Below are positions 5,455 to 48,085 of a DNA stretch of 64,000 nucleotides, in pieces. Each line of letters starts with the position of its first letter. Position 1 is the first letter of the stretch. Where the stretch lies: assembly GCA_035510535.1 (NCBI GenBank), contig DATKGY010000041.1, positions 29,493 to 93,492 on the forward strand. The letters are read 5' to 3'. The notes beneath the pieces were generated by a model. The model did not search any database. It had not been told where the DNA came from and worked only from the letters and a program-made list of their open reading frames with translations. This DNA is from Patescibacteria group bacterium (GTDB lineage: Bacteria > Patescibacteriota > Microgenomatia > Levybacterales > UBA12049). Position numbers and translations under genes: made by a program.

Positions 5455-5460
5455 TACGTA

Positions 5461-7143: not shown

Positions 7144-7165
7144 GAAAAATTGTGACTTAAAGAAA

Positions 7166-11990: not shown

Positions 11991-11993
11991 TTT

Positions 11994-13295: not shown

Positions 13296-13305
13296 AATTT
13301 AACAA

Positions 13306-26849: not shown

Positions 26850-28178
26850 GTGATAAAAAATAAAAATGCTATTCTTAGTTTCAAATTTGTAAGCTTAGCA
26901 TTCGTGCTTATCCTAGGATTCTATCTAAGGTATGATAATCTTTACACTTGGCCGCGCCTTGGCGCAACATTTGACGAGTACGCGTGGACTTGGCTTGGAA
27001 TAAATTTAATTCAGAATCACGTTCCAATGTCTTGGTCCCGTCATCCACAGTATATTTATCGGCAGTCAATTGTTTATCAAAAAACCCCTTTTGTTATAGT
27101 CAAACCGTATCTTGAGCACCCACCGCTTTTTGGATTAGTAGTTGGTTCATTTGCCTTGATTAGTGGTGCGAAGGACATGTATCACGTTAACTTACAAAAT
27201 ATTCGGGGGTTAGCTCTAATATTAGGGGTTTTAAGTATTTTTATGGTTTATGTTTTGGCGGCGGAGGTCTATGGTTTTAGAATTGGCCTTTTGTCGTCAT
27301 TTTTATATGCAATTACGCCGACAATTGTTGTTGGTTCAAGAATTGTTGAAAACGAAAATTTCTTTATCCCATTTTTTCTGCTGGCATTATTTTTTATGTC
27401 TAAATTTATTAAAACAAAAAATCCCTGGTTTAGAAATATTGCGGCTGTGATTTGCGGACTATTAACTTTGGCGAAAGTCCCGTGGATTGCGGGAGCTTTG
27501 GCAATCGTATTAGTACTTTTCTATCTTAAGAAATATAAAGATTCGCTCAAATTTTTGGCAATTGTCTTGCCCATTTTTCTTATCTATTTTGCATACGGGT
27601 ATTATTGGGATTGGAATATATTCTTAGGACTTTGGGGGTTACAATTACAAAGGTTCGACATTACTTTTAATAGTTTTTTTGCTCTTTTTACTTCCCCTTA
27701 TTTGGTGGATAGGTTTATGGTTGACGGTTGGATATATTTTGGCTGGTTCGCGGTCTTTTTGCTTTTGGTTAAGGACATCAAGAAAAATATTTTCGTTATT
27801 TTACCGTTTTTAGCCTATCTCGCAGTTTTTATTTTCGTAATTCCTAACGAACCTTCTCATGGTTGGTACAGATATCCTTTTTATCCATTTTTGACAATTT
27901 CAACCGCGCTTTTCCTAAAAGAATATTTTAATAAGAATTACTTATTGACCTTTTTATTCTTAATATTTACCGGACTTTCAATGCTTCAGCTCAGCTGGGC
28001 TCAAAGTTTAGGATTTTCTTTTCTTGTTTTCAGATTCTTTTTGATTTTGTTTGGCATATCGGCGCTACCATTATTTATTCCTAAAACCAAAAAGCTTTCA
28101 TACTTTACCTCATACGTTTCTTTAGTTATAATCTTTTTCTTAAGCATGTGGTCAATCAAAAATTATAATGAGCAGTAA
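26850..28178 (+). CDS. Small GT39/PMT-like membrane glycosyltransferase, probably with a GTG start.
   Basis: 'LRYDNLYTWPRLGATFDEYAWTWLGINL' (DE motif); polytopic. Confidence 0.6.
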   Translation: MIKNKNAILSFKFVSLAFVLILGFYLRYDNLYTWPRLGATFDEYAWTWLGINLIQNHVPMSWSRHPQYIYRQSIVYQKTPFVIVKPYLEHPPLFGLVVGSFALISGAKDMYHVNLQNIRGLALILGVLSIFMVYVLAAEVYGFRIGLLSSFLYAITPTIVVGSRIVENENFFIPFFLLALFFMSKFIKTKNPWFRNIAAVICGLLTLAKVPWIAGALAIVLVLFYLKKYKDSLKFLAIVLPIFLIYFAYGYYWDWNIFLGLWGLQLQRFDITFNSFFALFTSPYLVDRFMVDGWIYFGWFAVFLLLVKDIKKNIFVILPFLAYLAVFIFVIPNEPSHGWYRYPFYPFLTISTALFLKEYFNKNYLLTFLFLIFTGLSMLQLSWAQSLGFSFLVFRFFLILFGISALPLFIPKTKKLSYFTSYVSLVIIFFLSMWSIKNYNEQ

Positions 28179-31528: not shown

Positions 31529-31972
31529 TTATTTTTTGTTGCGCTTTGGTCTTCCTGCAGAGCCTGTAGGGTGTATTGTTCGATACTTTTTCATTATGGA
31601 TGGTGATACGCGAAAAGTGTCAGACTCATAATCATTTCCGCCTCTTTTTCCTTCCGAAAAGGTAATAAATTGATTATCTTCAATAATTTCAAGCGCATGT
31701 ACCTCATTTGGACCAGTTGTTACCATTTCGCCTTCGTGAATAACGACGCTTTTTACTTTACTATTGTCCTCGTCAAGTTTTCGATAGTAATACCTAAGAC
31801 TTCCCCTCGTCATATATATGTGCTGAGTAGTATATCTATGATAGTGATCTCCGCGAAACGCACCCTTTTTTGAATTCATCACCGCTACGTGATCAATGCG
31901 ATGATTATAAAATATATCCGAGATATTTCCCCGATTATCCTTGGTTGCAATTTTTATTTTTGTTTTTATCAT
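31529..31972 (-). CDS. Cupin-fold protein, possibly a sugar 3,4-ketoisomerase (FdtA/WxcM-like).
   Basis: 147 aa; His-rich 'FRGDHYHRYTTQHIY'; last gene of the minus-strand GDP-sugar operon. Confidence 0.45.
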   Translation of the reverse strand: MIKTKIKIATKDNRGNISDIFYNHRIDHVAVMNSKKGAFRGDHYHRYTTQHIYMTRGSLRYYYRKLDEDNSKVKSVVIHEGEMVTTGPNEVHALEIIEDNQFITFSEGKRGGNDYESDTFRVSPSIMKKYRTIHPTGSAGRPKRNKK

Positions 31973-33195
31973 AGTAGCTCTTTTTCTCCTGGAACTATAA
32001 ATTCTATTGTATCATTTATTTTCCTTATTTTTTCAGTTAAATATTTACCGATATTCCAAGCGGTTATTAAGGCAACATCGATGTTTTCAGCTTGAAGACT
32101 GGTATCATTCTTGATTGGAATAAGAGATCCGGGGGTATATTTGCCGATTTTGTATTTTGAGGCGTCGGTGACAAATTCGATGACAGTGCTATCGAGTCTA
32201 TAAAAGTTAAGAAGAGTATTGCTTCGTGCCCCGGCTCCGATCGCGGCTATTTTTTTACCCTTTTTCTTGAGTGCATAAACTTTTGCTAAGACATCATTTT
32301 TATCTTTAATTATTTTTGCCATAAAAGCAGCGTATGTTTTTGGATTAAATATCTTTGCATTTTCTTCGGCTTTGATAGATTTTCTGACGAGAGCGGCGTT
32401 GTAGGCAGAAACATTGGGCGTAGAAATAATCCTTAGTGATCCACCATGATAATTTACATTCTCAACGTGAACTATATACAGCCCGTATCTTTTAAGCATG
32501 GTGTCTGCCGAGCGTACGCTAAATGTTGAAATATGTTCATGAAATATCATATCAAATAAATATTTTTCAACTGTATCCTTTAGAGATGGTACTTCAAAAA
32601 TAAAATAGCCATCATTTTTAAGACCTGACTTTATTCCCAACATTGCCTCTTTTAAGTTCTCGATATGATTAACTACATTATTTCCCATGATTATTTTTGC
32701 CATTCCCTTCTTCTTTACGGCAGCTGCGATTGTATCTTTTCCGACGAATCCTTCTATTGAATCAACACCAATTTTCCTTGCTTCACGAATCATGATAGGG
32801 GAAGGGTCAATTCCGGTAACTCTGATTCCTTTCTTCTTAAAATGCGAAAGTAAATGTCCGTCATTTGATCCAAATTCTATAACGTGATCAGTTGATTCCA
32901 CATGTGTATATTTACTTACAGAATCGAAGAATTCAAGCCAATGTTTTTTTGCCGCATCTGAATTAAAGGACGTATAGCTGTAGTTACTTTCGACATATCT
33001 TTCATCTCCCGGTGTAAAATATTCATTTTGTAAGTGCCCGCAATTTTTACATAATAAGCAATTAAGCGGATATGTATTAAGGGGAAGAAGTAATTGTTCT
33101 TTCTTGAGGAATGTATCCGCTAATGGGTGAAAGCCTAATTTAATAACTCTTTTTAAATTTGAGTTATCGCAGACAATGCATTTTTTAGCTAACAT
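31969..33195 (-). CDS. Nucleotide-sugar C-methyltransferase (N-terminal zinc ribbon, class I MTase, C-methyltransferase C-domain).
   Basis: 'CIVCDNSN...CKNCGHLQ' Cys4 ribbon, then 'VIEFGSNDGHLL' SAM motif; architecture of TylC3/NovU-type sugar C-MTases. Confidence 0.7.
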   Translation of the reverse strand: MLAKKCIVCDNSNLKRVIKLGFHPLADTFLKKEQLLLPLNTYPLNCLLCKNCGHLQNEYFTPGDERYVESNYSYTSFNSDAAKKHWLEFFDSVSKYTHVESTDHVIEFGSNDGHLLSHFKKKGIRVTGIDPSPIMIREARKIGVDSIEGFVGKDTIAAAVKKKGMAKIIMGNNVVNHIENLKEAMLGIKSGLKNDGYFIFEVPSLKDTVEKYLFDMIFHEHISTFSVRSADTMLKRYGLYIVHVENVNYHGGSLRIISTPNVSAYNAALVRKSIKAEENAKIFNPKTYAAFMAKIIKDKNDVLAKVYALKKKGKKIAAIGAGARSNTLLNFYRLDSTVIEFVTDASKYKIGKYTPGSLIPIKNDTSLQAENIDVALITAWNIGKYLTEKIRKINDTIEFIVPGEKELL

Positions 33196-33201
33196 AAGTA
33201 A

Positions 33202-33993
33202 TTAAGATATGGGCATTATATGGTTTTTCAAGAAACTTTTCAAATACTCGGAAGATGTTTTCAGAGAATAAATTTTATTTAGTTTTGAGACATCTGTTTC
33301 GTAGGTTTGTGTTTTTCCGTCTTTAGGGAAATTTATTTGCTTCTTTATGTATTGGTTTAATTCCTTAAATAAAACAGTACCAATTCCGCCTACGTTAAAT
33401 ATTTCCCTCGTGATGTTTCTATCAATTAGAAAATAAATAATTTGAGCAAGCTCTTTCGTTGTTATCATTTGGAAAGCAGATTCCTTGGATATAAATAAAT
33501 GTGAGTCATTCAAGATGTCATACACCGGTCCCTTTTTTAAGTTAACTCCGAGCATCATGGGACAGCGTAGGATTATGTAACTTTTTATGAAATTTCTCAC
33601 GATACATTCGCTCAAAAACTTATGGAATCCATAAGGGGCAAGTTTTTCAAAATTTATTGGTTCTTTCTCTGAAGTAAATTTTTCGCTTGTATGATCTTCG
33701 TAAACATCGCTTGACGATATATACATATATGTTTTGCATGGAAAATCCAAAAGAGTCTTGTATACAGAAATTGTGGATGCTTCGAAATCGCCAAGGACAT
33801 TATCGTTTGCCCAAACTTTGTTACTATTTCCATTTGCATTAATAACAACGTCAAATTTTTGGTTTCTATGCTCCTCATAGCTCTCTCGGTCTATTTCGAC
33901 GATTGCTTGAAAATGTGGCTTCAGATATCGGACTAAGTCCGATCCTACCATGCCGTGGCTTCCTATGATTGCTAATCTTTTTGAGTTTTTCAA
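33202..33993 (-). CDS. Short SDR NAD(P)-dependent sugar reductase or epimerase (RmlD/Rmd-like).
   Basis: 'RLAIIGSHGMVGSDL' Rossmann motif; 263 aa. Confidence 0.6.
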   Translation of the reverse strand: MKNSKRLAIIGSHGMVGSDLVRYLKPHFQAIVEIDRESYEEHRNQKFDVVINANGNSNKVWANDNVLGDFEASTISVYKTLLDFPCKTYMYISSSDVYEDHTSEKFTSEKEPINFEKLAPYGFHKFLSECIVRNFIKSYIILRCPMMLGVNLKKGPVYDILNDSHLFISKESAFQMITTKELAQIIYFLIDRNITREIFNVGGIGTVLFKELNQYIKKQINFPKDGKTQTYETDVSKLNKIYSLKTSSEYLKSFLKNHIMPIS

Positions 33994-33999
33994 TTGAAT

Positions 34000-34380
34000 T
34001 TAAAGCAAAATTTTATCTTCGATAAACGGCCCGTTTTTAATTTCTATAATTTCGCTATCTTTTAGTATGTGGACTCCATGTCCTCCATTCATAAATATTA
34101 TAGTTTCACCAGCTGAAAGATATATAGACTTGAAATACTTTTTCTTCGGTGTATAAAAATCAATTTTTATTTTCCCCTTTATGACTACTAAACATTCCTG
34201 AAGTTTTTCCGTAATGCGTCTCTTTGGAACGTGAATGTGTGCCTTTGTGCATTCACCCGATGAGCGCTTGTGTGTTACAAGCTGTAGCGGTTCATTAGGA
34301 TCCGTAAGAGATATTACGCCATTTTTGAGTTTCTTAATTCGGATGGCGATTACAGTATTGTTAGATATTATCTTTTCCAC
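34000..34380 (-). CDS. Small cupin-fold protein, possibly a sugar epimerase/isomerase.
   Basis: 126 aa beta-rich; 'HIHVPKR...GGHGVHIL' His cluster. Confidence 0.4.
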   Translation of the reverse strand: MEKIISNNTVIAIRIKKLKNGVISLTDPNEPLQLVTHKRSSGECTKAHIHVPKRRITEKLQECLVVIKGKIKIDFYTPKKKYFKSIYLSAGETIIFMNGGHGVHILKDSEIIEIKNGPFIEDKILL

Positions 34381-34383
34381 TTT

Positions 34384-35463
34384 TTAATAGAATCGGTGTC
34401 TGGTTACTATTTTATGTCCCAGCCCTGTCTCTTTTTTAACCTGATCGTAATCATGCTTAATCATAATTTCAACTAACTCCTGAAAATTAACTTTTGGTTT
34501 CCATCCCAGAAGTTTTCTCGCCTTAGAAGAGTCACCAAGCAGATAGTCTACCTCAGAAGGACGAAAGTGAACGGGATCTATTCCAATAATTATTTTTCCC
34601 GTTTTTCGATCGATGCCTTTTTCTTTTAAACCTTTTCCCCTCCATTGTAAGTCATAGTCTAGGTGCTTTGCGACGTTCTCAACAAATTCGCGAACGGTGT
34701 GTGTTTGACCGGTTGCCAATACGAAATCATCGGCACTTTTATAATTTAAAATTTTATAAATTCCTTCAACGTAATCTTTGGAGTAACCCCAGTCTCTCTT
34801 GGCATTTAGATTTCCAAGCATTAAAACGTCTTGCAATCCCAGTTTTATACGCGATAATCCCAGCGTCACTTTTCTTGTTACAAATGTAATACCTCGTCTT
34901 GGCGATTCGTGATTAAAGAGGATGCCGTTTGCCGCGAATATATTGTAACTTTTTCGATAGATCCGCGTAGTATGAAACGCAAATACTTTTGACAAAGCGT
35001 ATGGTGATTGTGGATTAAACGGTGTTTTCTCATTTTGGAAGGTTTTTTTCTCCACGTCGCCGAACATCTCGGAAGATCCCGCCTGGTAGAATTTGATAGG
35101 AGCTTTAATTTGACGAATAGCTTCCAAAATGCGTAAAGCGCCCAGTCCCGTAATATCTACGGTATATTCAGGCATGGAAAAGCTTACGCCCACATGACTC
35201 AGAGCGCCAAGATTATAGATTTCATCGGGTTCAGCCTTTTCAATTAGCGCGGCGATGTTGGAGCTATCAGATAAATCTCCATAAGCAGTCTGAAAGTTGG
35301 GGAATTTGGCATTGTTAATTAGATGGTCTATGCGATATGTATTAGGGTAGCTGGTATGCCTTTGCAGACCGAATACTTTATAACCTTTTTCAAGCAGAAG
35401 CTCTGCTAAGTATGAACCGTCTTGTCCGGTAATTCCAGTAATTAATGCTCGCTTCCTTGCCAT
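34384..35463 (-). CDS. gmd: GDP-mannose 4,6-dehydratase.
   Basis: 'ALITGITGQDGSYLAELLLEKGY', 'YALSKVFA' (YxxxK), 'NHESPRRG' - textbook Gmd signatures. Confidence 0.9.
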   Translation of the reverse strand: MARKRALITGITGQDGSYLAELLLEKGYKVFGLQRHTSYPNTYRIDHLINNAKFPNFQTAYGDLSDSSNIAALIEKAEPDEIYNLGALSHVGVSFSMPEYTVDITGLGALRILEAIRQIKAPIKFYQAGSSEMFGDVEKKTFQNEKTPFNPQSPYALSKVFAFHTTRIYRKSYNIFAANGILFNHESPRRGITFVTRKVTLGLSRIKLGLQDVLMLGNLNAKRDWGYSKDYVEGIYKILNYKSADDFVLATGQTHTVREFVENVAKHLDYDLQWRGKGLKEKGIDRKTGKIIIGIDPVHFRPSEVDYLLGDSSKARKLLGWKPKVNFQELVEIMIKHDYDQVKKETGLGHKIVTRHRFY

Positions 35464-35644
35464 TTTGCAAATATAGCACGTTTTTTAAAAAAAAGAAATA
35501 CTTCAGTGATAAATTTAAAAATTTGCAAGAATCATACACAAAAAATTACCGGCAGCCGAAAAGGTTTAATTTTTTTAAAAAATATAGTATTTACGCAATA
35601 AAATGTTATATAATATGCTATTGAATAAATATTTTTAATACTTT

Positions 35645-36436
35645 ATGAATCCTTTACGCCTCATACTTAACATTTTTCCTGAAGGGTATATAAAATCTAT
35701 CATAAAAAATATTTTAAGCTATTCCATTAACGTGATGCCCGGTCCCGTTGACTTGGTTACGGTAAATGGAATAAGCATAAAAATGCACAAGGATAATGTT
35801 TTTAACAATAGGCGTCTTGTAAAGGAAGTGAGCGGTTACAATACATATTATTCTCTACGAAAAGGAGATATTGTCATTGATGCAGGAGCATACACAGGGC
35901 TATATACAGTATATGCGGCCAAAAAAGTGGGCTCAAAAGGAAAAGTCATCGCCTATGAACCGGATCCATACACCATGATGATGCTAAAAAAGAATATCAA
36001 ACTAAACCAGCTTTCCAATGTCACCTTAGTTAGGAAAGGATTATTTGATAAGAATGATTCTGTACCCTTCGATATTCAATCAGTCGGCTCAAATATTGTT
36101 ACCATAAACACAGCATTTCATAATAGAAAAACCATTAATAAGGTCAATGTTGCACCCCTTGACGAAGAAGTTGTTAGGCTTAGGCTTAATACAGTCGACT
36201 TTATAAAAATGGATATTGAAGGAGCGGAAATCGAAGCGATGAAAGGCGCACGTACAACGATTAAAAAAAATAAAAACATTAGCCTTGCGATTGCAAGCTA
36301 CCATGTCGTAAATGGAAGAAAGACATACATATTCTTGGAAAAATTCTTCAAGAAATTAAATATGAATACAAAAACAGAGCTAAATGGACAATTGACAACT
36401 TATTCCAGCTACAAAAAATTGGCCAGGGGGAATTAA
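35645..36436 (+). CDS. FkbM-family methyltransferase.
   Basis: 'VIDAGAYTGLYTV', 'DFIKMDIEGAE'. Confidence 0.75.
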   Translation: MNPLRLILNIFPEGYIKSIIKNILSYSINVMPGPVDLVTVNGISIKMHKDNVFNNRRLVKEVSGYNTYYSLRKGDIVIDAGAYTGLYTVYAAKKVGSKGKVIAYEPDPYTMMMLKKNIKLNQLSNVTLVRKGLFDKNDSVPFDIQSVGSNIVTINTAFHNRKTINKVNVAPLDEEVVRLRLNTVDFIKMDIEGAEIEAMKGARTTIKKNKNISLAIASYHVVNGRKTYIFLEKFFKKLNMNTKTELNGQLTTYSSYKKLARGN

Positions 36437-36646: not shown

Positions 36647-37654
36647 ATGATAAAAAAAAATGAAAAATTTATTTCCCCCGTTTCTATTGTAATAATTCAA
36701 AGAAACTCTTCGTCCACAATTCTCTACGCGCTGGAGGGGATTAGAAAACAAGATTATCCAATAAGAGAAATAATCATAGTCGATAACCATTCAACCGATG
36801 ATTCTTTGAGCAAGATAAAAAACTTTTCCGTAAACAATAAAGCGTTACAGATTAGAATTTTAACGAAAAATTCAGACACAGGAGTTAGTAATAGCTATAA
36901 CATGGGAGTTAAAGTCGCTAAGTCTAATTACGTTATTGTCATGCACGCAGATGGAGTTTTACCTGCGAGAAGAGAGATTAGCATCATGATGAAGCCAGTT
37001 CTTGAGGAAAAAAATGTTTCCGCATGTACGCCATTCATACTGATGCCCAGAAGCGTTTGGAATAAGTATAATTTTTGGGAGAAATGTCTGTTTTGCCCGG
37101 CGCTAAGTAGAGATCAGAGAAGTTTTACCGGTAAATTTAATTACGTCAATAAAAAGTTATTCTTGGAAGCAGGGGGTTTTGATGAAAAAAATTTCAATGC
37201 CGATATAGGAGGGGAAGATGTAGATCTTGCAATTAAATTAAAAAAATTAGGTAAAGTAGTTGAAACCAATGCGAGGGTAATCCATCTTCATTATTTAGGC
37301 CAAAATTATTCAATTATAAATTGGATAAGCAATAGAAAACTGTTTGCCAGATCTTATGGGAAAATAATAAGGATGCATAAATTAAATTTACCCTTAGGTG
37401 CGTTGTTAGTATTGCTGGTTAAGCCATTCTTGGCTTTTTTTTCATTGATTATATTTATTTTCCCTTATAATTTTCTGCCCATTATCGCATTTGCATTAAT
37501 ATACATGAAAGAGATGTATACAACTAAAAAAACACTTACTGATCCCCGTATACTTCTGTTGCCTTTTGTCTCGATAGCGCTTATATATTACGAAACTTTT
37601 TGGATGGTTGAAGAATTTCTTTTACCGGTAAAGAAATGGAAAGGACTTAAGTGA
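36647..37654 (+). CDS. GT2 glycosyltransferase with C-terminal TM helices.
   Basis: 'VSIVIIQRNSSS...IIIVDNHSTDDS'; 'GGEDVD'. Confidence 0.8.
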   Translation: MIKKNEKFISPVSIVIIQRNSSSTILYALEGIRKQDYPIREIIIVDNHSTDDSLSKIKNFSVNNKALQIRILTKNSDTGVSNSYNMGVKVAKSNYVIVMHADGVLPARREISIMMKPVLEEKNVSACTPFILMPRSVWNKYNFWEKCLFCPALSRDQRSFTGKFNYVNKKLFLEAGGFDEKNFNADIGGEDVDLAIKLKKLGKVVETNARVIHLHYLGQNYSIINWISNRKLFARSYGKIIRMHKLNLPLGALLVLLVKPFLAFFSLIIFIFPYNFLPIIAFALIYMKEMYTTKKTLTDPRILLLPFVSIALIYYETFWMVEEFLLPVKKWKGLK

Positions 37655-38427
37655 AAACTGTAATTTTGTGCGGGGGGATAGGATACAGACTTAAAGAGGA
37701 AACAGAATTTAAACCAAAACCAATGGTGCAAATTGGCGGCAAGCCAATACTGTGGCACATTATGAAAATTTATGCCCATTACGGGTTTAATGATTTTATC
37801 ATAGCGTTAGGATACAAAGGTGATTATATAAAGCAATACTTTCTTAATGAAAAAAATATGGTTTATGATTTTAGCCTAAACACTTTAAGCGGTAAAACAA
37901 AAATCATAAGAAATGATACCAAGTCGGAAGATTTTAAGATAACGTTTGTGAATACGGGGGAAGAAACACTGCCAGGAGAAAGAATATTGAGGATAAAAGA
38001 TTATATTCCCAAAAAAGATAAAAATTTCATGGTGACTTATGGTGATGGTCTGTCGGATATTAACATTAAAGCGCTAGTGAAATTTCACAATAGACAAAAT
38101 ACGATAGGGACAATCACAGGAGTTCATCCTAGAAGTAAATACGGCCTTTTAAAATTGGGTGAAAATAATATTGTAGAGAATTTTACGGAAAAACCGATTC
38201 TAAAAGAGAGAACCAACGGAGGATTCATGATCTTCAAACGGGATTTTTTTAGTTATTTAAAACCAGGAGAATTTGAGCATAACGCGCTACAGCGGCTAGT
38301 TAAGAAAAAACAACTCTCGGTGTTTATACATGATGGGTTTTGGCATTCAATGGATACATATCCGGACGTGGATAGTCTAAATAAACTGTGGGGCGAAAAT
38401 CCAGCATGGAAAGTGTGGAAGCGGTGA
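37651..38427 (+). CDS. rfbF: Glucose-1-phosphate cytidylyltransferase, with a GTG start.
   Basis: 'KTVILCGGIGYRLKEETEFKPKPMVQIGGKPILWHIMKIY' is near-identical in pattern to the RfbF N-terminus; 258 aa. Confidence 0.85.
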   Translation: MKTVILCGGIGYRLKEETEFKPKPMVQIGGKPILWHIMKIYAHYGFNDFIIALGYKGDYIKQYFLNEKNMVYDFSLNTLSGKTKIIRNDTKSEDFKITFVNTGEETLPGERILRIKDYIPKKDKNFMVTYGDGLSDINIKALVKFHNRQNTIGTITGVHPRSKYGLLKLGENNIVENFTEKPILKERTNGGFMIFKRDFFSYLKPGEFEHNALQRLVKKKQLSVFIHDGFWHSMDTYPDVDSLNKLWGENPAWKVWKR

Positions 38428-39530
38428 TAGTGCTTAAAAGCGACATAGAAAAAAAAGACATTGCCTATATTCATTCGAAAGCTAAAGAAGAGTTTGAAGT
38501 ATTGGGTGGGAATTCGGTTCTTCTAACAGGAGCAAACGGTTTCTTAGGATTTTATCTCGTTAAATCCATTCTTGCGTGGAACGATAGTAATCCAAACAAA
38601 AAAATAAAACTTTATGCGTTAAGTACCTTTAAAAAGGGCATGCCCAAATGGCTAAAGGAAATAAAAGGTAGAAAAGACTTAGTTGTTCTAAGAAAAGACA
38701 TCGGAGAATACAAACTTCCCTTAGGTATTGCATTTGATTATATAATCCATGGTGCTTCATTCGCGTCTCCGACCTTCTACAGACAAGATCCAATTGGTAC
38801 AATCAATGCCAATATTTTGGGTCTTTACAACGTGTTGAATTATATGGTTCAAAGAAGAAAGAAAAGCAGAGCAGTTTCCGGTTTATTATTCTTCTCGTCC
38901 AGCGAAGTATATGGAGATCCCACTGAAGGAAATATCCCAACCCCCGAAACCTATCGAGGAAATGTGTCATGCACCGGACCAAGAGCATGTTACGATGAGT
39001 CGAAAAGATTTGGGGAAACCCTTTGCATAAATCACGTTAAAGCATACGGTCTCCCAATAAGATCTGCCCGGCCTTGCAATAATTATGGTCCCGGTATGAA
39101 AATTACAGACGGAAGGGTAATTGCTGATTTCTCAAAAGATATTCTGGAGAATGAAGATATTGTCATGTTTTCAGACGGTAGTCCATCTAGAGCCTTTTGC
39201 TATGTTGCCGATGGGATTGTCGGATATTTAAAAGTACTCATAAAAGGAAGGGATGGGGAAGCATACAATATTGGTGTTGCTGGGCCCGAAGTATCAATGC
39301 TTAATTTAGCTAAAAAAATAGTTAAGATTGGGAAAGATAATTTTCATTATTCAGGAAAGATAGTAACTAAGAAGAATAAAGATAATGATTATTTAATAGA
39401 TAACCCTAGCCGCCGCTGTCCAATGATCGATAAGGCAAGGAAGGAATTAGGATATGCTCCGCAAATTTCCATAGACGAAGGTTTAGAAAGAGTATTGCGT
39501 TGGTATCACGATATTTATTACAGAGCTTAA
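38406..39530 (+). CDS. Extended SDR, UDP-glucuronate decarboxylase-like (UXS/ArnA C-terminal type).
   Basis: 'VLLTGANGFLG', catalytic 'YDESKRFGE' (UXS 'YDEGKR'-like), 'FSSSEVYG'. Start could be 38388 or 38406. Confidence 0.55.
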   Translation: MESVEAVIVLKSDIEKKDIAYIHSKAKEEFEVLGGNSVLLTGANGFLGFYLVKSILAWNDSNPNKKIKLYALSTFKKGMPKWLKEIKGRKDLVVLRKDIGEYKLPLGIAFDYIIHGASFASPTFYRQDPIGTINANILGLYNVLNYMVQRRKKSRAVSGLLFFSSSEVYGDPTEGNIPTPETYRGNVSCTGPRACYDESKRFGETLCINHVKAYGLPIRSARPCNNYGPGMKITDGRVIADFSKDILENEDIVMFSDGSPSRAFCYVADGIVGYLKVLIKGRDGEAYNIGVAGPEVSMLNLAKKIVKIGKDNFHYSGKIVTKKNKDNDYLIDNPSRRCPMIDKARKELGYAPQISIDEGLERVLRWYHDIYYRA

Positions 39531-39533
39531 AGT

Positions 39534-40886
39534 ATGAAAATAACCATTGTCGGGACAGGTTACGTGGGGCTAGTAACAGGAGTATCCTTAGCAAGGTTAG
39601 GACACAGAGTGATTTGCATTGGGAGAGACAAGAAAAAAATACTTAGTATCAATAGTGGTAAGTCACCTTTTTTTGAGCCGGGGCTAGACGTGCTGCTTAA
39701 AAAACTTGTGGGAAGAGGTTTAATTATCGCAACGAATAATCTTGAGGAAAGCGTAATGTCTAGCGACTTCACAATTTTAGCAGTCGGTACTCCAACATTG
39801 AAAGACAAAATAGACTTGTCGGAAATAGAAGAAGCATCAAAGCAAGTCGGAAACGCCTTGAAAAGCATTACGAAATATCACGTTGTTACTACGAAATCAA
39901 CGGTTATTCCCGGGACTACAGAATCGATTATTAAGCCTCTGCTTGAAAAATATTCCAATAAAATTGCCGGTAAAGATTTTGGTCTTTGTATGAACCCCGA
40001 ATTCTTAAGAGAAGGAAATGCGGTAGAAGATGCCACGAATCCCGACAGGATTGTAATTGGGCAATATGATAAAAAAAGCGGTCAACAGTTTGCGAAGATT
40101 TACAGCAAAGTTTCTTGCCCCAAAATTTTTACCAACCTAGCGACGGCAGAAATGACTAAGTACGCGAATAATGCGCTACTCGCGACACTTATAAGTTTTT
40201 CAAACGAAATTGCCAGAATATCCGAGGAAACAAAAGGGGTAGATATTCTTGATGTTTGGAAAGGTGTTCATTTAGATTCAAGATTAACTCCGAGGATAAA
40301 TAATAAACTTATTAGACCAGGAATTTTAAACTATATATTCTCCGGTTGCGGATATGGCGGAAGTTGCTTTCCGAAAGATACGAAAGCGTTAGCTGCATAC
40401 GCAAAAGAGATTGGTGTTAAGACAGAGCTCATTAATAGTGTTATAAATATTAATCGTACCCAACCGGCTCGAATGGTTTTGCTCTTAAAGCAAGCCTTAG
40501 GGAGCTTGAAGAATAAAAAAATTGCTGTTTTAGGATTAACATTTAAACCAAACACGAACGATCTAAGAGAGTCTCCGTCCATTTGGGCTATAAAATTACT
40601 ACTTGAAGAAGGGGCGGTAGTTGTTTGTCACGATCCCATAATTAATTCCAGCAGGATGGAATTAGAACATATGAATATTACGCTTACAAAAACAATCGAG
40701 GGAGTACTAAAAAACGCGGATGGAGTACTCCTGATGACTGCCTGGAACGAATATAAAAAACTTACGCCCGGTATCTTCAAAAAACACATGAGAAACGGCA
40801 TTGTTATTGATGGAAGGAGAATATTTAATAAAGCTCTTTTTTTAAATTCCGGGGTCATCTATAAGGCAATAGGTTATAATGGGTAA
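39534..40886 (+). CDS. ugd: UDP-glucose 6-dehydrogenase family nucleotide-sugar dehydrogenase.
   Basis: 'MKITIVGTGYVGLVTG', catalytic 'GCGYGGSCFPKD', 'NPEFLREG'. Confidence 0.85.
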   Translation: MKITIVGTGYVGLVTGVSLARLGHRVICIGRDKKKILSINSGKSPFFEPGLDVLLKKLVGRGLIIATNNLEESVMSSDFTILAVGTPTLKDKIDLSEIEEASKQVGNALKSITKYHVVTTKSTVIPGTTESIIKPLLEKYSNKIAGKDFGLCMNPEFLREGNAVEDATNPDRIVIGQYDKKSGQQFAKIYSKVSCPKIFTNLATAEMTKYANNALLATLISFSNEIARISEETKGVDILDVWKGVHLDSRLTPRINNKLIRPGILNYIFSGCGYGGSCFPKDTKALAAYAKEIGVKTELINSVININRTQPARMVLLLKQALGSLKNKKIAVLGLTFKPNTNDLRESPSIWAIKLLLEEGAVVVCHDPIINSSRMELEHMNITLTKTIEGVLKNADGVLLMTAWNEYKKLTPGIFKKHMRNGIVIDGRRIFNKALFLNSGVIYKAIGYNG

Positions 40887-40943
40887 GTAAAACGTTATAT
40901 AATAAGCTTATCTGGCGGTAAAAGCTTATAAAAGCTGTATATT

Positions 40944-41765
40944 ATGGACTATGAAGAGTTAAAACAACTTAAGCTACGGGTGAAAAAGCATCGAAGAACA
41001 ATTCTCTCAATGATTGTGCCTGTTCGCGCTTCCCACATCGGCTCATCCCTGTCAATAATCGATGTAATATTTTATCTATACTCGAAAGTCTTGCATGTAA
41101 ATCCAAAAAATCCGAACCTTGCTAATCGCGATCGCTTTATTTTAAGTAAAGGTTGGGGAGCGTCAGCGCTGTACTCCGTGCTGGCGGAAAAAGGTTTTTT
41201 CAAAAAATCATTACTTAAAACCTACCTTCATGATGGGAGTAAGCTAAATGGAACTACCACAAGAAACGGCACGCCGGGAATTGAAGCAACGACGGGTTCA
41301 GCGGGACATGGTTTACCTATAGGAGTAGGTATGGCGTTAGCCGGAAAATTGCAAAAAAAATCTTTTCGCGTGTTTGTAGTTTTAGGCGATGGAGAGTGCG
41401 CGGAGGGTTCTGTTTGGGAAGCAGCTTTGCAGGCAGGACAATATAAATTAGACAACCTAATTGTTATTGTTGATTATAATAAATTGCAGGGTTTCGGAAG
41501 AGTAAAGGATATTCTAGATTTTGAGCCTTTTGCTAAAAAATGGGAGGCATTTAAGTGGTCGGTTAAAGAAATCAACGGTCATGATTTTAATGAAATAGCG
41601 AAAGTATTTTCCAGATTACCCTTCGAGGAAAATAAGCCCAGCGTCATAATTGCTAACACCATAAAAGGCAAAGGCGTATCGATTTTTGAAGACAAAGGAG
41701 AATGGCACTACAAAACACCCAACCTAGAGGAAGTGGCTATTGCGCTAAGGGAGCTATCGGAATGA
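40944..41765 (+). CDS. Transketolase, N-terminal (TPP-binding) subunit.
   Basis: 'GHIGSSLS', 'GSAGHGLPIGVGMALA', 'GDGECAEGSVWEA'. Confidence 0.8.
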   Translation: MDYEELKQLKLRVKKHRRTILSMIVPVRASHIGSSLSIIDVIFYLYSKVLHVNPKNPNLANRDRFILSKGWGASALYSVLAEKGFFKKSLLKTYLHDGSKLNGTTTRNGTPGIEATTGSAGHGLPIGVGMALAGKLQKKSFRVFVVLGDGECAEGSVWEAALQAGQYKLDNLIVIVDYNKLQGFGRVKDILDFEPFAKKWEAFKWSVKEINGHDFNEIAKVFSRLPFEENKPSVIIANTIKGKGVSIFEDKGEWHYKTPNLEEVAIALRELSE

Positions 41766-42691
41766 GGACAGCCTTTTTAAACGAAATTACCAATTTGATG
41801 CGTAAGCATAAAGATATAATCGTTATTACGGCGGATATGGGATTTTCCGTATTCGAGGGTTTACAAAAAGAATTCCCCAATCGTTTTATGAATACGGGTA
41901 TTACTGAGCAAAGCTCAATAGGGATTGCTACGGGACTAGCATTATCAGGATATACCGTTTACTTTTATGCCCAAGCGCAATTTGCAACCATGAGATGTTT
42001 TGAACAAGTCAGACTGGATGTTGCATTTCATAATCTTAACGTAAAAATTATAGGCGTTGCGTCGGGATTTAGCACGAATCAATTAGGAGTGAGTCATTAT
42101 GCTATTGAAGATGTCGCGCTTATGAGATTATTACCAAACATGACCGTTCTTACACCTGGGGATCCATATGAATCTAGCGAGTTAACGCGCCTGTCTTATG
42201 AAACAGCAGGACCAGTCTATATAAGGATTAATAAAAGCGGTACGCCACTAGTGCATAATAATAAGAAACCGGCAATAGTCATTGGTAAAGGTCTTAAAAT
42301 TCGTGCTGGGAAAGGTTGCAGTCTTCTTGTGTCGGGTAGTTTGCTGCCTGTTGCTGTTGCAGCGGCCGATATGCTTTCAGAACAAGGTATACAGACATCT
42401 GTTATTTCTTTTCACACAGTTAAGCCTTTAGATAAAGCCTTGATTCTTCAGGAGGCAAGGTTCACGAAAAACATCTTTACTCTTGAGGACCATTTTATTA
42501 CAGGGGGATTTGGTAGCGCAGTCGCAGAAGTTTTAGCGGAAGCAAATAGTACAGCGAGATTTTTACGATTAGGAGTCCCTGATAGATTTACTAGCGTGGT
42601 AGGTTCTCAAGAATATCTTTTAGCAGAAAATGGACTTTCTAAAGAGGAAATAGTAAAAACTATTGTCCAGCATCTGAAGCATAAATTATGA
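41762..42691 (+). CDS. Transketolase, C-terminal (pyrimidine-binding) subunit.
   Basis: 'ITEQSSIGIATGLALSG', 'HYAIEDVALMRLLPNMTVLTPGDP'; ATGA overlap with the N-subunit. Confidence 0.8.
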   Translation: MRTAFLNEITNLMRKHKDIIVITADMGFSVFEGLQKEFPNRFMNTGITEQSSIGIATGLALSGYTVYFYAQAQFATMRCFEQVRLDVAFHNLNVKIIGVASGFSTNQLGVSHYAIEDVALMRLLPNMTVLTPGDPYESSELTRLSYETAGPVYIRINKSGTPLVHNNKKPAIVIGKGLKIRAGKGCSLLVSGSLLPVAVAAADMLSEQGIQTSVISFHTVKPLDKALILQEARFTKNIFTLEDHFITGGFGSAVAEVLAEANSTARFLRLGVPDRFTSVVGSQEYLLAENGLSKEEIVKTIVQHLKHKL

Positions 42692-48046: not shown

Positions 48047-48085
48047 TATCTGGAAATATTTGGTAATATCTGGAAGTATATGGAA
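48047..48085. promoter_or_regulatory. Two tandem ~19-nt direct repeats (ATATCTGGAARTATWTGG) overlapping the fic start codon. Candidate operator or insertion junction.
   Basis: atatctggaaatatttggta / atatctggaagtatatggaa read directly. Confidence 0.4.

What the first reader, a model, noticed from the sequence alone, without database searches (positions are those of the whole stretch)
31529..35463. Minus-strand GDP-mannose 4,6-dehydratase operon with a zinc-ribbon sugar C-methyltransferase: a candidate GDP-linked branched-chain 6-deoxyhexose pathway
Five overlapping genes on the minus strand, in transcription order: gmd (a clear GDP-mannose 4,6-dehydratase), a 126-aa cupin, a short SDR reductase, a 408-aa protein, and a second His-rich cupin (FdtA/WxcM-like). 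The 408-aa protein has an N-terminal Cys4 ribbon ('CIVCDNSN...CKNCGHLQ'), a class-I SAM motif and a C-terminal C-methyltransferase-type domain. That is the architecture of TylC3/NovU-type NDP-hexose C-methyltransferases. C-methyl branched sugars are classically TDP-linked. Starting from a GDP-4-keto-6-deoxymannose intermediate would yield a GDP-6-deoxy-C-methyl-hexose (evalose-like), which is rare. The two cupins could provide the 3,5- or 3,4-epimerase/isomerase steps.
Basis: partly seen in the sequence, partly recalled or inferred. Interest (0 to 1): 0.65.

Follow-up and report, generated by a model that had tools for sequence, protein, structure and literature searches.

The report
Candidate GDP-linked C-methyl deoxysugar operon
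A tightly packed five-gene operon in an uncultured Patescibacteria genome most likely turns GDP-mannose into a methyl-branched 6-deoxy sugar for a surface glycan; the chemistry is of a known kind, but the methyltransferase belongs to a previously undescribed clade that always travels with its own small cupin partner and, unlike its relatives, with a GDP-mannose dehydratase.

Summary
Five co-directional minus-strand genes lie at 31529-35463:
- a bona fide GDP-mannose 4,6-dehydratase (above the TIGR01472 equivalog cutoff; 50% identical to E. coli Gmd);
- a 126-aa cupin with no Pfam family;
- a 263-aa RmlD-like short SDR;
- a 408-aa TylC3/TcaB9/MtmC-type sugar C-methyltransferase (MT) with all three Pfam domains (E=6e-58 to solved MtmC);
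- a 147-aa cupin of the CapF C-terminal type (PF14667, not FdtA).

Only one gene pair truly overlaps.

New findings:
- The MT sits in a distinct clade (bootstrap 100/100).
- The PF14667 cupin follows the MT in 9/9 clade neighbourhoods scored with the same script. Two further contigs show the same arrangement.
- A real Gmd is nearby in 6/9 of those neighbourhoods, against 0/83 for other family members (Fisher p=1e-7). Most of the others sit beside an RfbF-like cytidylyltransferase.

This supports GDP-4-keto-6-deoxymannose as the substrate. That is still inferred, because an RfbF-like/SDR pair 4.5 kb away is an alternative source. The methylated carbon and the final stereochemistry are unresolved.

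A GDP route to a C-methyl sugar was already proposed in silico for Coxiella virenose, so this is a new variant of a known kind. Interest is moderate.

The parts
34384..35463 (-). [quoted passage not shown]
   Evidence: TIGR01472 464.7 bits (cutoff 415) and PF16363 437.6 bits. It is 50% identical over its full length to E. coli Gmd, including the GILFNHESPRRG motif.
34000..34380 (-). cupin A (126 aa): small cupin with no Pfam family; putative epimerase or isomerase acting on the 4-keto intermediate
   Evidence: No Pfam hit. WbuC-cupin TIGR04366 scores 27 bits, below its cutoff of 42. The family has about 142 members, the few that carry a name being CPR. H48, H50, Q61 and E62 are invariant. The AF2 model (pLDDT 86.9) is an all-beta, cupin-type model. 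Foldseek finds only weak matches (E>=0.04), among them QdtA, FdtA, WlaRB and WbcA. It follows gmd in L087, L090 and L092, and a 126-aa ORF with no Pfam hit follows the Gmd-like gene on the P0048 contig.
33202..33993 (-). short extended-SDR (263 aa): putative NDP-4-keto-sugar 4-ketoreductase, RmlD-like
   Evidence: PF01370 49 bits. Homologues often hit PF04321, the RmlD substrate-binding domain. S93, Y121 and K125 are invariant. The AF2 model has pLDDT 92. The best size-normalised Foldseek matches are RmlD (1vl0: TMq 0.78, TMt 0.74), and GDP-4-keto-6-deoxymannose reductase 2pk3 is also hit.
31969..33195 (-). NDP-hexose C-methyltransferase (408 aa) of the TylC3/TcaB9/MtmC family, in a new clade ('clade A')
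   Evidence: PF08421, PF13489 and PF08484 all score above threshold. PDB matches: MtmC E=6e-58, TcaB9 1.7e-46, KijD1 1.3e-40. The Zn cysteines C6, C9, C49 and C52 are conserved, as are the equivalents of TcaB9 Y76, H181, E224 and H225. The Y222 equivalent is Phe. Clade bootstrap is 100/100.
31529..31972 (-). cupin B (147 aa): stand-alone CapF-C-terminal-type cupin, constant partner of the clade-A MT
   Evidence: PF14667 37.5 bits (cutoff 28.7). H43, H45 and H92 are invariant. Profile against PDB: Cap5F cupin 1e-4, QdtA 1.3e-4, archaeal RmlC-like 1.6e-4, FdtA 4e-3. It lies immediately downstream of the MT in the 9 clade-A neighbourhoods scored and also in L096 and on the P0048 contig. It overlaps the MT stop codon by 4 bp.
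35464..35644 (.). 181-bp AT-rich divergent intergenic region between gmd and the FkbM-type methyltransferase gene; presumed promoter region for both directions
   Evidence: Sequence read. Promoter-like hexamers are found here, but at no more than chance frequency for the region as a whole.
35645..36436 (+). FkbM-family methyltransferase (263 aa), divergently transcribed; possible O-methyltransferase for the sugar or glycan (association only)
   Evidence: PF05050 60.6 bits and TIGR01444 97.4 bits. PF05050 genes also lie near the cassette in L090 and L096.

Best explanation
This is a five-gene operon that makes a GDP-activated, C-methyl-branched 6-deoxyhexose from GDP-mannose, for use by the surrounding glycan-assembly island of a Patescibacteria (CPR) bacterium.

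Proposed steps:
(1) Gmd converts GDP-D-mannose to GDP-4-keto-6-deoxy-D-mannose. The enzyme identity is shown by homology; the reaction is inferred from the family.
(2) The zinc-ribbon, SAM-dependent methyltransferase deprotonates a carbon next to the 4-keto group and transfers a methyl group to it. C3 is most likely, by analogy with its nearest solved relatives MtmC, TcaB9 and KijD1. The family and the active-site residues are shown; the substrate nucleotide and the position methylated are inferred.
(3) One or both small cupins re-set the stereochemistry of the 4-keto intermediate. This would be C5 and/or C3 epimerisation, in the manner of the Zn-dependent cupin domain of CapF. This step is inferred.
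(4) The RmlD-like short SDR reduces C4 with NAD(P)H to give the final GDP-6-deoxy-C-methyl-hexose. This step is inferred.

The MT plus cupin B form a constant two-gene module. The finishing enzyme varies between relatives (this SDR, Fcl-like reductases, or a DegT aminotransferase).
For: - Gene identities.
- Tight co-directional packing, with gaps of 3, 6 and 6 bp and a 4-bp overlap.
- The same five-gene order recurs in L092 and, by gene sizes and Pfam content, on the P0048 contig. In L087 gmd, cupin A, MT and cupin B are contiguous, with a distantly sSDR-like 266-aa SDR (26% identity) on the opposite strand.
- Matching longest-contig lengths across the hit lists of MT, cupin A and SDR suggest that about 25-30 further contigs carry all three. 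This is a proxy, not a direct test.
- The MT clade has 100/100 bootstrap support. It is separate from the TDP-type branch (TcaB9, MtmC, Streptomyces) and from the large RfbF/RmlC-associated clade.
- A bona fide Gmd lies within 6 kb in 6 of 9 clade-A neighbourhoods against 0 of 83 other family members (Fisher p=1.2e-7).
- L088 and L093 add two Fcl-like (GDP-fucose-synthase family) genes. L090 adds a GT10 fucosyltransferase-family gene. Apart from the window's own contigs, no clade-A neighbourhood scored has an RfbF-like gene within 6 kb.
- The catalytic equivalents of TcaB9 Y76, H181, E224 and H225 and the Zn cysteines are conserved.
- There are 32 clade-specific positions. They include polar replacements flanking the catalytic Tyr72 (S73, T75, N78) and His177 (N176), and 17 in the C-terminal part (residues 246-408), which includes the PF08484 domain. 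This fits a changed substrate.
- The CapF cupin domain is an experimentally shown Zn-dependent epimerase acting on a 4-keto-6-deoxy nucleotide sugar before SDR reduction (PMC5393024).
- Precedent for the logic: the proposed GDP-virenose route in Coxiella (PMC3539893, PMC3204966).
Against: - No enzyme of this clade has been assayed, and no C-methyltransferase has been shown to use a GDP-sugar. As of the 2026 review the Coxiella route is still a model.
- Three of nine clade-A neighbourhoods (L089, L094, L095) have no Gmd within 6-7 kb, so the MT-cupin B module is not strictly tied to Gmd.
- The window also carries an RfbF-like nucleotidyltransferase and a 380-aa SDR 4.5 kb away on the other strand. 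Relatives of that SDR flank the MT in a different clade. An RfbF-like/SDR/RmlC/RmlD-like cluster also lies 4-6 kb from the cassette in L096 and on the P0048 contig.
- No ManB or ManC is present in the window, so GDP-mannose must be supplied from elsewhere.
- The Tyr222 equivalent, invariant in 85/85 outgroup MTs, is Phe here. The consequence is unknown.
- The cupin reactions are unassigned. Cupin B is equally distant from epimerases and 3,4-ketoisomerases, and cupin A has no significant structural match.
Confidence: 0.62

Rival explanations
1. There are two pathways in one operon. The MT-cupin B module methylates a different nucleotide sugar (CDP- or other NDP-4-keto-6-deoxyglucose), made by the nearby RfbF-like nucleotidyltransferase (37651-38427) and the 380-aa SDR (38388-39530). 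Gmd, cupin A and the short SDR separately make an unbranched GDP-6-deoxyhexose (for example of the GDP-rhamnose or 6-deoxytalose type).
For: - MT-cupin B is a mobile module that occurs without Gmd in L089, L094 and L095.
- Most of the family sits with RfbF-like genes (43/83).
- A separate group of loci has cupin B, MT and an SDR 37-41% identical to the window's 380-aa SDR. Its monophyly is weakly supported (27/100 bootstrap).
- The window, L096 and the P0048 contig all have an RfbF-like cluster within 4-6 kb.
- Gmd plus a reductase is sufficient on its own for a GDP-6-deoxyhexose.
Against: - In the window, L087, L092 and the P0048 contig the MT is embedded in the Gmd operon, not the RfbF-like one, which is on the other strand.
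- L088, L090 and L093 have Gmd (plus Fcl-like genes or a GT10 gene) and no RfbF-like gene within 6 kb.
- Clade A is phylogenetically separate from the RfbF-associated clade, with 100/100 support.
- Cupin A would be left without a clear role.
Confidence: 0.2
2. The operon is GDP-linked as proposed, but the chemistry differs from C3 methylation. Either the MT is a C5-methyltransferase (NovU-like), or cupin B is a 3,4-ketoisomerase (FdtA/QdtA-like) that makes a 3-keto sugar. In the second case methylation would occur at C2 or C4 and the SDR would reduce C3.
For: - The cupin B profile matches the QdtA and FdtA ketoisomerases about as well as it matches the CapF epimerase cupin (1.3e-4 and 4e-3 against 1e-4).
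- The constant MT-cupin B pairing, which the solved TDP-type enzymes' loci lack, suggests that the cupin prepares or processes the MT substrate.
- Clade-specific changes surround the catalytic residues, and the otherwise invariant Tyr is lost.
- From general knowledge, the family contains C5-methyltransferases such as NovU.
Against: - All three nearest solved relatives are C3-methyltransferases.
- Pfam places cupin B in PF14667, the epimerase cupin of CapF, and not in FdtA.
- No characterised C5-MT sequence could be fetched, so the phylogenetic test was not possible.
Confidence: 0.13
3. The 408-aa protein is not a sugar methyltransferase; it methylates a lipid, a small molecule or a protein.
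For: The generic class-I SAM domain also gives weak NCBIfam hits to UbiG, BioC and Tam.
Against: It shows full-length, three-domain homology to solved NDP-sugar C-methyltransferases (E=6e-58). All catalytic and Zn residues but one are conserved. In nearly every locus examined it sits among nucleotide-sugar genes.
Confidence: 0.02

Closest known systems
Late steps of TDP-L-mycarose and related pathways (TylC3 C3-methyltransferase, TylK 5-epimerase, TylC2 4-ketoreductase), and the solved enzymes MtmC (4rv9), TcaB9 (3ndi) and KijD1 (5t64)
   Same: The methyltransferase family and three-domain architecture are the same, with the Zn ribbon and catalytic His/Glu/Tyr residues conserved. The overall logic is also the same: 4,6-dehydratase, then C-methylation alpha to the 4-keto group, then epimerisation, then 4-ketoreduction. 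The pathway order is from general knowledge.
   Different: - The window's MT is only about 29-30% identical to these enzymes and falls in a separate clade.
- The dehydratase here is Gmd (GDP-mannose), not RmlB (TDP-glucose).
- The epimerase candidates are small non-RmlC cupins (PF14667 and a family with no Pfam model), not PF00908.
- The reductase is a truncated 263-aa SDR.
- The Tyr222 equivalent is Phe.
Proposed GDP-virenose pathway of Coxiella burnetii (Gmd CBU0689, TylCIII-like CBU0691, GMER-like CBU0688)
   Same: Both pair a Gmd with a TylC3-family C-methyltransferase and a reductase in one glycan locus, implying a GDP-linked 6-deoxy-3-C-methyl-hexose (PMC3539893, PMC3204966).
   Different: - The Coxiella model uses a bifunctional Fcl/GMER-type epimerase-reductase. 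Here two stand-alone cupins plus an RmlD-like short SDR take that place.
- CBU0691 is reported as 42-44% identical to TylCIII, EryBIII and AviG1, whereas this MT is about 30% identical to its nearest solved relatives.
- In neither system has the C-methylation of a GDP-sugar been demonstrated.
CapF / WbjC (UDP-L-FucNAc pathway): bifunctional SDR plus C-terminal Zn cupin
   Same: Cupin B belongs to the Pfam family of the CapF C-terminal cupin and keeps the HxH...H site. In CapF the cupin epimerises a 4-keto-6-deoxy nucleotide sugar and the SDR domain then reduces it (PMC5393024). That is the same division of labour proposed here for cupin B and the short SDR.
   Different: Here the cupin and the SDR are separate genes with the methyltransferase between them. 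The substrate nucleotide is presumably GDP rather than UDP. Similarity is weak (Cap5F E=0.36 with the single sequence, 1e-4 with the profile).
C-methyltransferase loci with an RfbF-like cytidylyltransferase, a dehydratase-like SDR and RmlC (the majority genomic context of the family; CDP-vinelose of Azotobacter is a possible product type, from memory)
   Same: The same MT family, also located in glycan loci of environmental bacteria.
   Different: These sit in a different clade. They are associated with RfbF-like and RmlC genes, never with Gmd (0/83), and rarely with the PF14667 cupin (5/83).

Membership tests
NDP-hexose C-methyltransferase (TylC3/TcaB9/MtmC; Pfam Methyltransf_13 + class-I SAM domain + Methyltransf_14) | N-terminal Cys4 zinc-binding domain (PF08421) | tested here: met
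   55.5 bits against a cutoff of 31.3. C6, C9, C49 and C52 are conserved in 100/100 or 99/100 aligned family members.
NDP-hexose C-methyltransferase (TylC3/TcaB9/MtmC; Pfam Methyltransf_13 + class-I SAM domain + Methyltransf_14) | Central class-I SAM-binding domain with a glycine-rich motif | tested here: met
   PF13489 70.1 bits. The EFGSNDG motif is invariant in the clade.
NDP-hexose C-methyltransferase (TylC3/TcaB9/MtmC; Pfam Methyltransf_13 + class-I SAM domain + Methyltransf_14) | C-terminal C-methyltransferase domain (PF08484) | tested here: met
   123.9 bits against a cutoff of 23.5, covering profile positions 2-157 of 160.
NDP-hexose C-methyltransferase (TylC3/TcaB9/MtmC; Pfam Methyltransf_13 + class-I SAM domain + Methyltransf_14) | Active-site residues equivalent to TcaB9 Tyr76, His181, Tyr222, Glu224 and His225 (residue list recalled from Bruender & Holden 2012, not re-read) | tested here: inconclusive
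   Y72, H177, E220 and H221 are conserved. The Tyr222 equivalent is Phe218, although it is Tyr in 85/85 outgroup sequences.
NDP-hexose C-methyltransferase (TylC3/TcaB9/MtmC; Pfam Methyltransf_13 + class-I SAM domain + Methyltransf_14) | SAM-dependent C-methylation of an NDP-4-keto-6-deoxyhexose | not testable with these tools
   This needs an enzyme assay.
GDP-mannose 4,6-dehydratase (Gmd, TIGR01472) | Score above the equivalog cutoff and full-length similarity to a characterised Gmd | tested here: met
   464.7 bits against a cutoff of 415. The dTDP-glucose dehydratase model scores only 109.9 bits against a cutoff of 365. It is 50% identical to E. coli Gmd over 359 residues.
CapF/WbjC C-terminal cupin (PF14667) | Pfam score above the gathering threshold, with the His metal site conserved | tested here: met
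   37.5 bits against 28.7. H43 and H45 align with the CapF HxH motif. H43, H45 and H92 are invariant in 15 homologues.
CapF/WbjC C-terminal cupin (PF14667) | Fusion to an N-terminal SDR reductase domain | tested here: not met
   Cupin B is a stand-alone 147-aa protein. The SDR is a separate gene two positions upstream.
FdtA/QdtA/WxcM 3,4-ketoisomerase (PF05523) | Pfam membership | tested here: not met
   Neither cupin hits PF05523 at E<=0.01. There are only weak profile-level matches of cupin B to QdtA (1.3e-4) and FdtA (4e-3), and non-significant Foldseek matches of cupin A.
RmlC-type 3,5-epimerase (PF00908 / TIGR01221) | Pfam or TIGRFAM membership | tested here: not met
   Neither cupin gives a hit. 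The window's true RmlC homologue is a different gene at 42688-43233.
RmlD-type NDP-4-ketosugar reductase | PF04321 or TIGR01214 above cutoff; Ser-Tyr-Lys triad; RmlD-like fold | tested here: inconclusive
   PF04321 scores 19.2 bits (cutoff 27) and TIGR01214 17.2 bits (cutoff 224). However, many homologues carry PF04321, S93, Y121 and K125 are invariant, and the best size-normalised fold matches are RmlD (TMq 0.78, TMt 0.74).
WbuC-family cupin (TIGR04366) | Score above the family cutoff | tested here: not met
   Cupin A scores 27 bits against a cutoff of 42.
Coxiella-type GDP-virenose cluster | Orthology of the MT to CBU0691 and of the reductase to the GMER CBU0688 | not tested
The short SDR resembles Fcl only in its N-terminal GxxGMVGS motif.

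The most novel reading that the evidence does not exclude
The clade-A methyltransferase and its constant PF14667 cupin partner form a dedicated two-component GDP-sugar branching module, common in CPR bacteria, that would be the first GDP-specific sugar C-methyltransferase system. Together with a cupin family that has no Pfam model and a truncated reductase, it would make a branched 6-deoxyhexose not yet described in any glycan. This would imply that C-methyl sugars are widespread in the surface glycans of uncultured ultrasmall bacteria, and that the nucleotide used by this enzyme family (TDP, CDP or GDP) can be predicted from the clade.
Probability: 0.4. Interest if true: 0.6.

Novelty: new variant of a known kind. 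Interest (0 to 1): 0.45.

Why it matters
Branched-chain deoxysugars are known mainly from actinomycete antibiotics (TDP-linked) and from a few pathogen O-antigens.
- **A GDP-sugar C-methyltransferase has never been demonstrated.** The only proposed case, Coxiella virenose, involves a select-agent pathogen that is hard to work with. This operon and its many close relatives offer a compact five-gene, non-pathogen system in which that reaction could be tested directly.
- **The family may sort by nucleotide.** The survey suggests that the C-methyltransferase family splits into clades that track the nucleotide-sugar context: TDP-type, RfbF-like (CDP-type) and Gmd (GDP-type). The CDP-type context is the most common in genomes. 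This would improve annotation of glycan loci.
- **A partner cupin is new.** A constant cupin partner is not a feature of the characterised enzymes.
- **It adds to CPR surface chemistry.** The operon sits in a very large glycosylation island, which adds to the picture of unusual surface glycans in Patescibacteria.

Tried and rejected
- **Genome-contig scan.** It served as a background set but did not retrieve close relatives or Coxiella. No second scan was allowed, so CBU0691, NovU, TylC3 and AviG1 could not be placed in the tree.
- **Literature on nucleotide-binding residues of TcaB9, KijD1 and MtmC.** The TcaB9 paper is not held and the keyword searches were unproductive. GDP versus TDP could therefore not be tested at residue level. 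Only clade-specific positions were listed.
- **Short SDR against E. coli Fcl and RmlD by BLASTP.** Only the Rossmann-motif region aligned, so the idea that it is a truncated Fcl/GMER was dropped.
- **Cupin A sequence against the PDB.** Neither the single sequence nor the profile gave a meaningful hit.
- **Promoter and terminator scans.** Hits were at chance level. Operon status rests on spacing and conserved synteny.
- **Rfam scan of the window.** No hits, so no riboswitch or other RNA element is involved.
- **Search for ManB/ManC.** None is present in the window.
- **Search for the small GT2 that follows cupin B in relatives.** The window has only distant matches (25-32% identity) elsewhere.

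Full report
**1. Observation**

- 34384-35463 (359 aa)
- 34000-34380 (126 aa)
- 33202-33993 (263 aa)
- 31969-33195 (408 aa)
- 31529-31972 (147 aa)

The junctions are gaps of 3, 6 and 6 bp and one 4-bp ATGA overlap. The genes are therefore tightly packed and co-directional, but not all "overlapping". A 181-bp AT-rich region separates gmd from a divergently transcribed FkbM-type methyltransferase gene. Consensus promoter and terminator scans are at chance level. No Rfam family is present in the window.

The identical MT protein is called on 12 metagenome contigs, and the longer ones shown carry the same operon. The 100%-identical MT is labelled "Patescibacteria group bacterium" by NCBI. A cupin A homologue at 73% identity comes from a Candidatus Levybacteria MAG. 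G+C content is about 35%.

**2. Gene identities**

Gmd. The first gene scores 464.7 bits on TIGR01472 (equivalog cutoff 415), against 109.9 bits on the dTDP-glucose dehydratase model. It is 50% identical to E. coli Gmd over its whole length. It is a genuine GDP-mannose 4,6-dehydratase.

Methyltransferase. The 408-aa protein hits Methyltransf_13 (zinc ribbon), Methyltransf_23 (SAM domain) and Methyltransf_14 (C-terminal domain), all above threshold. It aligns end to end with solved sugar 3-C-methyltransferases: MtmC 4rv9 (E=6e-58), TcaB9 (1.7e-46) and KijD1 (1.3e-40). The four zinc cysteines are conserved, as are the equivalents of TcaB9 Tyr76, His181, Glu224 and His225. The Tyr222 equivalent is Phe218. 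The list of TcaB9 residues is from my memory of Bruender & Holden 2012; the paper could not be opened.

Short SDR. The 263-aa protein is an extended-SDR nucleotide-sugar enzyme.
- PF01370 scores 49 bits.
- Its homologues frequently carry the RmlD substrate-binding domain.
- Ser93, Tyr121 and Lys125 are invariant.
- A confident AF2 model (pLDDT 92) best matches RmlD 4-ketoreductases when normalised for size (1vl0: TMq 0.78, TMt 0.74). GDP-4-keto-6-deoxymannose reductase 2pk3 is among the top hits.

Cupin B (147 aa). It belongs to PF14667, the C-terminal cupin of CapF/WbjC (37.5 bits against a cutoff of 28.7). It does not hit FdtA or RmlC in Pfam. At profile level it is about equally distant from the Cap5F cupin (1e-4), QdtA (1.3e-4), archaeal RmlC-like proteins (1.6e-4) and FdtA (4e-3). 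His43, His45 and His92 are invariant. They correspond to the CapF HxH...H site, where a Zn2+ ion is required for epimerising a 4-keto-6-deoxy nucleotide sugar before the SDR domain reduces it (PMC5393024).

Cupin A (126 aa). It has no Pfam family and only a sub-threshold WbuC-cupin hit (27 bits against 42). It belongs to a small family of about 142 proteins; the few that carry a name are CPR. His48, His50, Gln61 and Glu62 are invariant. Its AF2 model (pLDDT 86.9) is an all-beta, cupin-type model. Foldseek finds nothing significant in the PDB; the weak list includes the QdtA, FdtA and WlaRB ketoisomerases and the WbcA epimerase.

**3. Context in the window**

The whole 64-kb window is a glycan-assembly island. 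It holds about a dozen tandem GT-C-type membrane proteins (PMT_2, PTPS_related, YfhO), many GT2 and GT4 genes, a flippase, several methyltransferases and an acetyltransferase. No ManB or ManC is present.

Downstream of the divergent FkbM gene lies a second nucleotide-sugar gene set:
- an RfbF-like nucleotidyltransferase (TIGR02623 267 bits, just below the cutoff of 300);
- a 380-aa SDR;
- a UDP-glucose dehydrogenase;
- a split transketolase;
- a true RmlC.

This matters because it could in principle supply a different NDP-4-keto-6-deoxyhexose to the methyltransferase.

**4. Comparative evidence**

I examined gene neighbourhoods of ten MT homologues spanning 49-68% identity. I also examined 80 loci of distant family members (30-36% identity) from GTDB genomes. 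ORFs were classified by BLASTP against window proteins and against E. coli RmlA-D, Gmd, Fcl and ManC.

(a) Cupin B lies immediately downstream of the MT in all nine distinct close-clade neighbourhoods scored (the window plus eight homologue loci, L087-L090 and L092-L095). The same arrangement is seen in L096 and on the contig carrying P0048, which were examined later. Five of these eleven loci have the same 4-bp overlap. Among 83 other family members only five have a cupin B-like gene, and in those it lies upstream of the MT.

(b) A real Gmd (45-78% identical to the window or E. coli enzyme) lies within 6 kb in six of the nine neighbourhoods, and in none of the 83 others (Fisher p=1.2e-7).
- L088 and L093 also have two Fcl-like genes.
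- L090 has a GT10 (fucosyltransferase family) gene.
- L092 reproduces the five-gene order, and the contig carrying P0048 does so by gene sizes and Pfam content (no DNA was available for it).
- In L087 gmd, cupin A, MT and cupin B are contiguous. The only sSDR-like gene there is a 266-aa SDR on the opposite strand, 26% identical to the window's.

(c) Of the 83 others, 43 sit beside an RfbF-like gene (usually with RmlC), 14 sit beside a different nucleotidyltransferase (actinobacteria), and only 3 sit beside RmlA.

(d) A neighbour-joining tree places the window's MT in a clade with 100/100 bootstrap support. That clade is separate from the TcaB9/MtmC/Streptomyces branch (76/100) and from the large RfbF-associated group.

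(e) Identical longest-contig lengths recur across the hit lists for MT, cupin A and the SDR. This suggests that about 25-30 more contigs carry all three genes. It is a proxy, not a direct test.

(f) The clade has 32 diagnostic positions.
- Polar replacements flank catalytic Tyr72 (S73, T75, N78) and His177 (N176).
- Seventeen positions lie in the C-terminal part (residues 246-408), which includes the PF08484 domain.
- The Tyr222 equivalent is Tyr in 85/85 outgroup sequences, but Phe in the window and in 76 of the 110 close homologues in which the motif could be matched. Among the clade-A members whose context was examined, the Phe form occurs only where cupin A and Gmd are present (L090 has both but keeps Tyr).

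**5. Most likely mechanism**

(1) Gmd makes GDP-4-keto-6-deoxy-D-mannose.
(2) The methyltransferase forms the enolate next to the 4-keto group and methylates it. C3 is most likely, by analogy with its nearest solved relatives.
(3) One or both cupins adjust stereochemistry at C5 and/or C3.
(4) The RmlD-like SDR reduces C4.

The product would be a GDP-6-deoxy-C-methyl-hexose that feeds the island's glycosyltransferases.

What is shown: the family memberships, the conserved catalytic residues, the operon structure and the clade-specific Gmd linkage. What is inferred: the nucleotide carried by the MT substrate, the methylated carbon, the cupin reactions and the product configuration.

In relatives, the finishing enzyme is replaced by Fcl-like reductases or by a DegT aminotransferase (L088, L093-L095). 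This fits MT plus cupin B acting as a core module that hands a methylated keto-sugar to variable tailoring steps.

**6. Rivals**

- **A different nucleotide sugar.** The MT-cupin B module might use the product of the neighbouring RfbF-like/SDR pair, while Gmd, cupin A and the SDR make an unbranched GDP-6-deoxyhexose. In favour: the module occurs without Gmd in three neighbourhoods, RfbF-like clusters recur 4-6 kb away (window, L096, P0048 contig), and a second group of loci pairs cupin B and MT with an SDR related to the window's 380-aa SDR. Against: the MT is embedded in the Gmd operon, other clade members lack any RfbF-like gene, and the clades are separate. I give this about 0.2.
- **Different regiochemistry.** This would be C5 methylation, or ketoisomerase-dependent C2/C4 methylation. 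It cannot be excluded, because cupin B is equidistant from epimerases and ketoisomerases and no characterised C5-methyltransferase could be fetched. I give it about 0.13.
- **A non-sugar substrate.** Effectively excluded.

**7. Comparison with what is known**

The chemistry parallels the late mycarose-type pathway (TylC3, TylK, TylC2). It also parallels the in-silico GDP-virenose route of Coxiella burnetii, which combines Gmd CBU0689, the TylCIII-like CBU0691 and the GMER CBU0688 (PMC3539893). Of that route only the steps up to Gmd were characterised (PMC3204966). A 2026 review still lists the locus only as "synthesis of virenose" (PMC13552124).

Natural 3-C-methyl sugars of the manno series exist. 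D-evalose occurs in orthosomycins, and 3-C-methyl-D-mannose occurs in an atypical H. pylori O-antigen (PMC12961483).

This system differs in four ways:
- a distinct MT clade;
- a constant stand-alone PF14667 cupin partner;
- a second cupin with no Pfam family;
- a truncated RmlD-like reductase.

It is therefore a new variant of a known kind, not a new kind of system.

**8. Verdict**

Its claim of rarity needs tempering. The GDP idea has a published precedent, and genomes show that the family is not predominantly TDP-linked.

Interest is moderate (0.45). This is a good, compact candidate for the first biochemical demonstration of a GDP-sugar C-methyltransferase, and for a clade-to-nucleotide rule in this family. 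It does not overturn anything.

Noticed in passing
window 37651-43233 (+): This is a second nucleotide-sugar gene set: an RfbF-like nucleotidyltransferase (just below the equivalog cutoff), a 380-aa SDR, a UDP-glucose dehydrogenase, a split transketolase (40944-41765 and 41702-42691) and a true RmlC. A ThDP-dependent transketolase among NDP-4-keto-sugar genes hints at a two-carbon-branched sugar, so the island may encode two different branched-sugar routes. An RfbF-like/SDR/RmlC/RmlD-like cluster also lies 4-6 kb from the cassette in L096 and on the P0048 contig.
   Followed up: partly
window 2099-16450, 19919-21565 and 26850-28178 (+): There are about a dozen tandem ORFs of 430-565 aa. The five scanned gave PMT_2, PTPS_related or YfhO (GT-C-type membrane glycosyltransferase) hits in four cases and no hit in one. 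This is an unusually large array, consistent with polyprenol-phosphate-sugar-dependent surface glycosylation in a CPR bacterium.
   Followed up: partly
loci L007-L086 (background set from genome contigs): Of 83 Methyltransf_14-family C-methyltransferases sampled from GTDB genomes, 43 sit beside an RfbF-like glucose-1-phosphate cytidylyltransferase (usually with RmlC). Fourteen sit beside another nucleotidyltransferase, only 3 beside RmlA and none beside Gmd. The CDP-type context therefore appears to dominate in genomes, unlike the TDP-centred literature.
   Followed up: partly
L008, L038, L046, L065, L077, L083: A second arrangement exists in which a cupin B-like gene lies upstream of the MT. 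In five of the six loci the MT also has an adjacent SDR 37-48% identical to the window's 380-aa SDR (38388-39530), downstream in four. It occurs in Sungbacteria, Rickettsiales and other Alphaproteobacteria, and in one unclassified MAG (L077). L083 also carries a ManC. Tree support for this group is weak (27/100).
   Followed up: partly
window 32542-32544 (codon for Phe218 of the MT): The residue equivalent to TcaB9 Tyr222 is Tyr in 85/85 outgroup methyltransferases. It is Phe in the window's enzyme and in 76 of the 110 close homologues in which the motif could be matched. Among the clade-A members whose context was examined, Phe occurs only where cupin A and Gmd are present (L090 has both but keeps Tyr). 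The functional meaning is unknown.
   Followed up: partly
window 35645-36436 (+); L090 1794-2543; L096 2473-3327: An FkbM-family methyltransferase (PF05050) is transcribed divergently from gmd, and FkbM-family genes recur near the cassette in two other loci. It is a candidate O-methyltransferase for the sugar or glycan.
   Followed up: no
L089 4691-6001; L088 12109 to the locus end: Some relatives carry a second, divergent C-methyltransferase paralogue (about 28% identity in L089) next to or near the clade-A MT. This suggests doubly methylated sugars or two branched sugars.
   Followed up: no
L088, L092, L093, L094, L095, L096 and the P0048 contig (downstream of cupin B): A small GT2 of about 220 aa (the size of polyprenol-phosphate sugar synthases) follows cupin B in most relatives. 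The window lacks it at that position and has only distant GT2 matches (25-32% identity), at 1431-2132 and at 46536-47474 (ArnC-like).
   Followed up: partly
window 43265-45403, 45363-46502, 51665-54841 and 55934-57379 (+): Four large ORFs (712, 379, 1058 and 481 aa) inside the glycan island have no NCBIfam hit. The first two also have no Pfam hit; the other two were not scanned against Pfam. A Fic-domain protein lies at 48080-49057.
   Followed up: no
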